Below are positions 31,087 through 31,175 of a DNA stretch of 34,017 nt, piece after piece (the stretch's first letter is position 1; each line of letters starts with the position of its first letter). This DNA comes from Octopus sinensis (taxonomy: Eukaryota). The position numbers were made by a program, and so were the translations under genes. The DNA is taken from the NCBI RefSeq assembly GCF_006345805.1, contig NW_021832042.1, positions 1 through 34,017 of the forward strand, in the 5' to 3' direction. A model generated the notes under the pieces. It was not told the DNA's origin. It saw nothing but the letters and a program-made list of their open reading frames with translations, and did not search any database.

Positions 31087-31175
31087 TATTATTCTTAAAT
31101 AAGAAAGTCCGACGATGGCTTAGCGGGCCGAAACTTCGAAGTCACTGTCAACAATATTCTTGTTTAAGAATAATA
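31087..31175 (+). ncRNA. Type-I hammerhead ribozyme (U4C core variant) with extended helix I
   Basis: Helix I distal 31087-31105/31157-31175 (19 bp, one G-U); proximal AGT/ACT; core CCGACGA(U); helix II GGCUU/GGGCC; GAAA; helix III ACTT-CG-AAGT; GUC site after 31143. Confidence 0.72.

What the first reader, a model, noticed from the sequence alone, without database searches (positions are those of the whole stretch)
31087..31175. Complete hammerhead ribozyme fold with a variant core, sense-oriented 2.4 kb upstream of the candidate gene
Seen in sequence: all three helices close around a hammerhead core, AGT-CCGACGA-T-GGCTT agc GGGCC-GAAACTTCGAAGTC^ACT. A 10-nt bulge (gtcaacaata) follows, then a 19-bp distal helix I (tattattcttaaataagaa / ttcttgtttaagaataata). 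The deviations from the CUGANGA/GAAA/NUH consensus are U4->C and an extra U after A9. Helix III is a 10-nt palindrome (ACTTCGAAGT). Established: palindromic helix III characterises hammerheads of Penelope-like elements, which can cleave as dimers, and helix-I bulge/loop-II contacts enable cleavage at physiological Mg2+. Inference: this is a Penelope/retrozyme-derived ribozyme embedded in microsatellite. It may have been retained or domesticated in the 5' UTR or an intron of the downstream gene.
Basis: partly seen in the sequence, partly recalled or inferred. Interest (0 to 1): 0.85.

Follow-up and report, generated by a model that had tools for sequence, protein, structure and literature searches.

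The report
Transposon fossil with variant hammerhead ribozyme
This is one decayed copy, among likely thousands, of the tail end of an old Penelope-type jumping gene whose self-cutting "hammerhead" RNA motif likely carried an unusual C in place of U from the start; the long hairpin around it is a flipped duplicate, and the copy likely does nothing for the neighbouring gene.

Summary
The hammerhead motif is present exactly as described, but it is not a one-off. It is the 3' end of an old, dispersed Penelope-like retrotransposon (2299 first-look candidates, 75-90% identical). Longer copies link it to RT, CxCX5C-linker and endonuclease remnants of the Hydra type. The "19-bp distal helix I with 10-nt bulge" is a 5'-truncated inverted duplicate of the element's own tail (15 of 30 tail-picked copies are such fold-backs, with varying junctions), so native helix I is only 4 bp. 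The extra U and the palindromic helix III are standard for Hydra-clade hammerheads. C4 is not: 26 of 26 published Hydra rows and 31 of 31 metagenomic relatives have U4. In this family C4 is ancestral (CG 15 : TG 13 : CA 15 in 56 copies, the pattern of neutral CpG decay), and a second, younger 362-bp repeat family has C4 in 49 of 52 hits. Copies show no selection on the core. This copy's good preservation fits its CpG-rich surroundings. The monomer is predicted not to fold as a hammerhead. The downstream "gene" could not be identified. Verdict: a transposon fossil; the family-level U4C core is a modest new variant.

The parts
30914..31010 (.). (CA)n/(TA)n microsatellite on the left of the insertion (likely the target site)
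   Evidence: TRF 30914-30993; sequence; Hydra PLEs insert in (TA)n (PMC8557442 section 11)
31011..31105 (-). Long arm: 5'-truncated inverted copy of the element's 3' tail (element positions about +52 to +154; no hammerhead); 13 substitutions in 95 aligned nt plus an 8-nt deletion against the family majority
31106..31175 (+). Short arm: element positions +1 to +70, carrying the hammerhead; lacks the TATA-like stretch that lies about 30 nt upstream in native copies
31106..31146 (+). Type I minimal hammerhead motif: helix I AGT/ACT (3 of the 4 native bp), core C3-C4-G5-A6-C7-G8-A9, extra U, helix II, G12-A13-A14, palindromic helix III, GUC cleavage triplet (predicted cut between 31143 and 31144)
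   Evidence: architecture matches the Hydra rows of File S2
31110..31110 (+). C at core position 4 (U4C), inferred to be the ancestral state of the family
   Evidence: CG 15, CA 15, TG 13 in 56 copies picked on the upstream body
31125..31125 (+). The only clear copy-specific change in the short arm (T to G). It adds a fifth U-G pair to helix II but is predicted to allow an alternative helix that captures C3-C4-G5
31087..31175 (.). 19-bp 'distal helix' (31087-31105 with 31157-31175) = overlap of the two arms; the 10-nt 'bulge' 31147-31156 is the part of the short arm that the truncated long arm does not reach
31177..31279 (.). (GT)n/(AG)n microsatellite on the right of the insertion
33552..34016 (+).
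   Evidence: no credible hit in Pfam (41), protein search (61) or Atlas (82); single copy in G000 (83)

Best explanation
The feature is a fold-back insertion of the 3' end of an old, multi-copy Penelope-like retrotransposon, likely of the Hydra clade, and this copy is likely an inert fossil. In the parent element a 4-bp helix I, the core, helix II and a 10-nt palindromic helix III sit about 30 nt after a TATA-like stretch near the element's 3' end (shown). The palindrome would let two such motifs in a tandem transcript pair and cut at GUC as a dimer to process the element RNA (inferred from published PLE hammerheads). The C4 core was already in the mobile parent (inferred from CpG decay) and would make cutting slow. 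Reverse transcription into a (CA)n/(TA)n tract gave a long tail-bearing arm and an inverted short arm (arrangement shown, mechanism inferred). Their overlap makes the 19-bp helix. Since insertion the copies have decayed without visible selection.
For: Multi-copy: 63 matches from 40 scored of 2299 candidates, best other place 77-96% identical. Parent: L121 runs inverted hammerhead arm - RT remnant (LYRD) - CNCRTLSSC linker - EN remnant (SCKH) - about 1 kb - hammerhead. L122, L123, L156 and L165 carry the same protein remnants (profile iE down to 1e-57); L123, L156 and L165 also hold the hammerhead, while none was found in L122. Intact relatives have RW[KR] 58/60, DK[TS] 60/60, CxCX5C 55/60, CxH 59/60, the Hydra diagnostics. 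Fold-backs: 15 of 30 tail-picked loci, long arm ending at +157/158 in most, short arm at +52 to +79, varied junctions. Neutral decay in 56 body-picked copies: C4-G5 CG15/CA15/TG13 (TG vs CA p=0.85); core A sites 22/273 changed vs flank 64/873 (p=0.69); intact cores 7 observed vs 5.6 expected; helix cells 80 broken vs 6 double changes. Exact 26-mers genome-wide: 6, the number expected from about 2,700 copies. CpG retention tracks flank CpG o/e (0.32-0.36 vs 0.75-0.83; this copy 0.84). Monomer hammerhead fold probability 2e-8.
Against: The short arm is unusually intact: 1 change in positions +1 to +56 against 2-16 in the 56 comparison copies. It is also better kept than its own long arm (13/95 vs 1-2/69-70; Fisher p=0.005-0.026). 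This copy is one of only 6 exact 26-mers in the genome. Outside CpGs, 4 of 56 copies do as well, and the copy was picked because it looked intact. Exact U4 vs A5 versions number 2 vs 0 (too few to test). RWK was not seen in the decayed parent copies, DKT only in degenerate form, and no tree was built.
Confidence: 0.85

Rival explanations
1. Same origin, but this copy has been kept by selection as a cis-acting ribozyme or hairpin in a host transcript (5' UTR or intron of the downstream gene).
Against: CpG retention follows the neighbourhood in all copies. The copy was chosen for looking intact. The one private change is predicted to misfold the core. The monomer does not fold, and there is no second copy in the window to dimerise with. 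C4 has not reverted to U. The gene is unidentified.
Confidence: 0.05
2. C4 marks a dead or vestigial ribozyme: the parent family had lost cleavage and moved without it, so the motif was non-functional even when the element was mobile.
For: All single changes in the CUGA turn gave low activity in one deep scan (PMC9901934 passage). Tail-picked copies show no pile-up of 5' ends at the cut site (+39; nearest +33 to +35 and +49, 30 loci). Naiad PLEs proliferate without canonical hammerheads (PMC8557442).
Against: The rest of the core and all three helices were perfect in the family majority. An unrelated, younger family has the same C4 with a perfect core and a different palindrome. A viroid U4C variant keeps enough activity in vivo (PMC3088659 passage citing Ambros and Flores 1998). 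This rival is compatible with the fossil reading of this copy and differs only on the parent's mechanism.
Confidence: 0.3
3. A retrozyme (non-autonomous tandem repeat with a canonical type I hammerhead spreading through circular RNA) rather than a PLE end.
For: Short, dispersed and hammerhead-bearing; retrozymes occur in molluscs (PMC7229834 passages).
Against: No 150-400-bp tandem unit; native upstream DNA leads into RT/EN coding remnants; helix I is 4 bp.
Confidence: 0.03
4. Chance match inside an AT-rich inverted repeat.
For: No Rfam hammerhead hit; core deviates from consensus.
Against: 0 hits in 200 shuffles; position and architecture match published Hydra hammerheads, with identical actt/aagt helix III arms in 7 of 26 rows.
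Confidence: 0.01

Closest known systems
Hydra-clade Penelope-like elements and their hammerheads (Craig et al. 2021, PMC8557442; e.g. Penelope-6_HM, Hydra-2_aJap, Hydra-1_Obim)
   Same: C-terminal endonuclease after RT; CxCX5C linker; CxH end; (TA)n targets; 5'-truncated inverted copies; hammerhead near the 3' end with short helix I, extra nucleotide after A9 and (near-)palindromic helix III (actt..aagt in 7 of 26 rows).
   Different: C4 instead of U4 (26 of 26 listed Hydra rows have U4, though their descriptor required it); about 1 kb between ORF end and hammerhead, so likely longer than the usual <3 kb; the family's motifs are absent from that paper's supplement (0 hits for two 11-12-nt strings); a different element from Hydra-1_Obim.
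Minimal type I hammerheads of metazoan PLEs (Cervera and De la Pena 2014, PMC4209133)
   Same: Helix I 4-5 bp, unpaired nucleotide between 9 and 10.1, G10.1-C11.1 pair, palindromic helix III, mostly solitary truncated copies, dimer-dependent with low in vitro activity.
   Different: Helix III is a full 10-nt palindrome; the core variant is U4C rather than the U3-A8 covariation described there.
U4C hammerhead variant of peach latent mosaic viroid (Ambros and Flores 1998; seen only as cited in PMC3088659)
   Same: Same core substitution, reported there as much weaker in vitro but sufficient in vivo.
   Different: There a rare variant in a tertiary-stabilised viroid ribozyme; here the inferred wild type of two multi-copy genomic families.
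Non-LTR retrozymes of animals (PMC7229834)
   Same: Resembles the second, 362-bp tandem family found in passing.
   Different: The window's family is the end of an RT-encoding element, not a short tandem unit.

Membership tests
Type I hammerhead ribozyme | Core C3 U4 G5 A6 N7 G8 A9 / G12 A13 A14 A15.1 / U16.1 H17 | tested here: not met
   All present except U4, which is C; a U4C natural variant is on record
Type I hammerhead ribozyme | Three helices can close around the core | tested here: met
   3, 5 and 3-4 bp
Type I hammerhead ribozyme | Hammerhead fold is populated | tested here: not met
   Monomer probability 2e-8; in a two-strand fold the 10-bp intermolecular helix III forms, but the helix II+III state is 2.6 kcal/mol above the MFE for this copy and 0.2 for the family majority
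Type I hammerhead ribozyme | Match to an Rfam hammerhead model | tested here: not met
   0 of 5 hits at E<=10 in 31020-31190
Type I hammerhead ribozyme | Self-cleavage at NUH | not testable with these tools
   needs an assay
Extended (tertiary-stabilised) hammerhead | Conserved distal helix I with a bulge or loop contacting loop II | tested here: not met
   Native upstream DNA gives a 4-bp helix I only; distal pairing comes from an inverted duplicate with copy-specific junctions
Penelope-like element (EN+) | RT followed by a GIY-YIG-type endonuclease in linked copies | tested here: met
   Remnants in L121, L122, L123, L156, L165. Pfam support is weak: GIY-YIG in 3 of 60 intact relatives, best E 0.0057, and no RT family; the assignment rests on motifs and on likeness to the Hydra alignments
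Penelope-like element (EN+) | Hammerhead near the 3' end; tandem or inverted 5'-truncated copies | tested here: met
   direct tandem in L105
Hydra clade | CxCX5C linker | tested here: met
   CNCRTLSSC in L121, CNCRTPSSC in L156
Hydra clade | CxxC and CxH motifs around the conserved E and N | tested here: met
   CQLC in L165; CKH or CRH in L105, L121, L122
Hydra clade | RWK and DKT motifs | tested here: inconclusive
   Present in intact relatives (58/60, 60/60); in the decayed parent only SGKTNNLY in L122, no clear RWK
Hydra clade | Insertion in (TA)n | tested here: met
   Window flanks and many loci; not counted formally
Hydra clade | Length generally under 3 kb | tested here: inconclusive
   No full-length copy recovered; the roughly 1-kb 3' region suggests longer
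Hydra clade | Groups with Hydra in an RT tree | not tested
   no tree built
Retrozyme | 150-400-bp tandem unit without an ORF | tested here: not met

The most novel reading that the evidence does not exclude
U4C is a working, selected wild-type hammerhead core in this lineage: two unrelated mobile families (an old Hydra-type PLE and a young 362-bp retrozyme-like repeat, each with over 2,000 search candidates) spread with C4 and perfect palindromic helices III, cutting slowly and only as dimers. That would be a class of genomic hammerheads that CUGANGA descriptors and Rfam miss.
Probability: 0.35. Interest if true: 0.6.

Novelty: new variant of a known kind. Interest (0 to 1): 0.33.

Why it matters
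The single copy matters little. The family-level result matters modestly: U4 is nearly invariant in hammerheads (31 of 31 in metagenomic relatives under a descriptor that allowed any base there), yet two repeat families here appear to have amplified with C4. Either the variant core is good enough in dimers, which widens the hammerhead consensus and means standard searches undercount genomic ribozymes, or cleavage is dispensable for PLE mobility. The role of the hammerhead in EN+ PLEs is called unclear in PMC8557442. A cheap in vitro assay separates the two. The case also warns that long 'helix I extensions' next to PLE hammerheads can be inversion artefacts.

Tried and rejected
Rfam scans found no hammerhead family. 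My first guess of a Neptune-clade parent was dropped after reading the Hydra diagnostics. Pfam on parent fragments and two intact relatives and the PDB sequence search with alignment A1 (0 hits) gave nothing usable. Identifying the downstream open frame failed; the window is a whole contig, so the frame is cut. A bacterial promoter/terminator scan of a native copy found nothing and is not suited to an animal genome. A 5'-end pile-up at the cleavage site was looked for and not seen. Covariation within the family is not informative (6 double changes vs 80 broken cells). No PLE protein was found in the 25 loci of the 362-bp family or in the window. The descriptor missed the U4 motif of the young L147/L148/L154 family seen, so its misses (27 of 58 loci) are not absences. 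Earlier scan notes: nothing. Ambros and Flores 1998 and Lunse et al. 2017 were not held; Lunse et al. or its supplements may already list C4 PLE variants.

Full report
1. Observation. The motif is present letter for letter, and a relaxed hammerhead descriptor finds it once in the window and never in 200 shuffles. Rfam has no hammerhead hit among 5 matches in 31020-31190. As a single strand the drawn fold is not populated (probability 2e-8); only the 19-bp helix forms. The window is a whole 34-kb contig of a 2.7-Gb genome.

2. It is a repeat. A search with 31030-31185 gave 2299 first-look candidates, of which 40 were scored, with hits on many contigs at 74-96% identity. Copies share CAGT-CCGACGA-T-helix II-GAA-ACTTCGAAGT-C^ACTG and a tail of about 115 nt. 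In native copies the upstream DNA is an A/C-rich body ending in a TATA-like stretch about 30 nt before CAGT, and helix I is 4 bp. That this is the element's promoter is inference.

3. The distal helix is an inversion product. 31011-31105 is the reverse complement of element positions +52 to +154, and 31106-31175 is +1 to +70. Of 30 loci picked on the tail alone, 15 are fold-backs of the same type with junctions at different places. The 10-nt bulge is simply the part of the short arm that this copy's long arm does not reach. Inverted 5'-truncated copies, and a tail on one end only, are described PLE traits (PMC8557442, passages).

4. Parent element. Walking upstream reached coding remnants. L121 reads: inverted hammerhead arm, RT remnant, CNCRTLSSC linker, endonuclease remnant, about 1 kb, hammerhead. 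L122, L123, L156 and L165 hold matching remnants. Younger relatives in G000 have open frames up to 727 aa and 1284 homologues at E<=1e-30 among 8000 scored. In 60 aligned proteins RW[KR] is in 58, DK[TS] in 60, CxCX5C in 55 and CxH in 59. These are the Hydra-clade diagnostics (PMC8557442, section 11 read whole), and the paper's Hydra alignments show the same motifs (supplement passages). Pfam support is weak (GIY-YIG 3 of 60) and no tree was built, so Hydra membership is likely, not proven.

5. What is and is not unusual in the core. File S2 of that paper (read as part 2 of the supplement) lists 26 Hydra rows. Most have an extra nucleotide after A9, a short helix I and a (near-)palindromic helix III; 7 have the same actt/aagt arms. 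PMC4209133 (parts 1-2 of 4 read) describes the same traits and low, dimer-dependent activity. All 26 rows have U4, but the descriptor demanded it. I therefore fetched 79 metagenomic loci, kept 66 whose match reached the C-terminal part and 58 with at least 100 nt downstream, and searched with a free position 4: 31 had a hammerhead, all 31 with U4 (about 26 distinct by eye). A younger PLE family in G000 also shows U4 (L147, L148, L154). C4 is thus a real deviation.

6. C4 is ancestral in this family. Among 156 unique hits, 86 cover the motif, and 56 of these come from loci picked on upstream body or protein. At C4-G5 they read CG 15, CA 15, TG 13, other 13, the same pattern as at the four other CpGs. 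That is what deamination of an ancestral CG gives; the catalytically dead G5A is as common as U4 (p=0.85). An unrelated 362-bp tandem/inverted family (2124 candidates; 25 loci, 92-100% identical to the query) has C4 in 49 of 52 motif hits, with 1 U4 and 2 cut by junctions, and its own palindrome ACACGTGT in most copies. The query carried C4, but one base in 362 is unlikely to drive the choice. On activity: a viroid U4C variant is reported as much weaker in vitro yet sufficient in vivo (PMC3088659, passages; the primary paper not seen), and single changes in the CUGA turn gave low activity in a deep scan (PMC9901934, passages). Searches for U4C with hammerhead (1 paper), CCGANGA, hammerhead with cephalopod or octopus and uridine turn showed no report of C4 PLE families. 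Lunse et al. 2017 was not available and may cover them.

7. No sign of selection on copies. Core adenines change at 22/273 vs 64/873 in flanks (p=0.69); intact cores are 7 of 56 vs 5.6 expected; helix cells are 505 unchanged, 55 one-sided, 6 two-sided, 80 broken and 26 gapped. Exact 26-mers number 6 (C4), 2 (U4) and 0 (A5) genome-wide; independent decay predicts 6 from about 2,700 copies.

8. Is this copy special? Against my reading: it has 1 change in +1 to +56, fewer than any of the 56 comparison copies (2-16), and its short arm is better kept than its long arm (p=0.005-0.026). For my reading: CpG retention is bimodal and follows flank CpG o/e (0.32-0.36 for copies keeping 0-1 CpG, 0.75-0.83 for 2-4; this copy 0.84), in line with patchy gene-body methylation reported for octopus (PMC9476566, abstract only). 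Outside CpGs 4 of 56 copies are as intact. The copy was noticed because it was intact. Its one private change is predicted to trap C3-C4-G5 even in a dimer, it lacks the TATA-like stretch, and it has no partner copy in the window. Eight contig sets guessed to be RNA hold 0.43-0.65 of the sampled words of 30560-31830, a lead only. Expression, RNA ends and orthologues remain untested. The downstream frame (33552-34016) is single-copy but unidentified.

9. Mechanism. Shown: anatomy, copy structure, link to RT/EN remnants, decay pattern. Inferred: in the active parent, tandem transcripts paired two palindromes and cut at GUC (PMC4209133; PMC6765202 passages), slowly because of C4; many inserted templates were uncut, since 5' ends do not gather at +39; this copy is a passive relic (0.85). 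Retention by the host: 0.05.

10. Verdict. Observation confirmed, interpretation partly supported. A new variant of a known kind; interest 0.33. Other papers seen: PMC7229834, PMC6155905, PMC3376415, PMC6962438 (passages only).

Noticed in passing
L161:340-1260 (G000:C16) and L196-L220: Young 362-bp tandem/inverted repeat family (2124 candidates) with a type I hammerhead: 5-bp helix I, C4 core in 49 of 52 hits, palindromic helix III, GUC site; retrozyme-like, no PLE protein within the 25 loci.
   Followed up: partly
L147, L148, L150, L152-L154: Younger Hydra-type PLE family with long open frames (up to 727 aa) and a U4 hammerhead core about 1 kb after the stop; two copies at L147 lie in opposite orientation.
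   Followed up: partly
L146, L149, L151, L155: A further Hydra-type PLE family with many near-identical copies and a microsatellite-rich 3' region; no hammerhead seen in the first 1.1 kb after the frame.
   Followed up: no
L164:835-885: Another type I hammerhead-like motif (U4 core, minimal helix III) in an unrelated repeat.
   Followed up: no
L230 (metagenome contig): Hydra-type element whose hammerhead shows the U3-A8 covariant core.
   Followed up: no
56 body-picked copies: CpG decay is bimodal and tracks flank CpG o/e, so this repeat family works as a recorder of long-term methylation domains.
   Followed up: partly
window 18258-19226: Three tandem 322-bp units at 98% identity; a similar stretch appears in L030; no hit with my hammerhead descriptor.
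   Followed up: no
window 2021-3592: 124-bp minisatellite, about 12.6 copies, 93% matches.
   Followed up: no
window 33552-34016: CpG-rich, single-copy open frame with poly-Ala/Thr/His tracts cut by the contig end; could be the first exon of a regulatory gene (inference), unidentified.
   Followed up: partly
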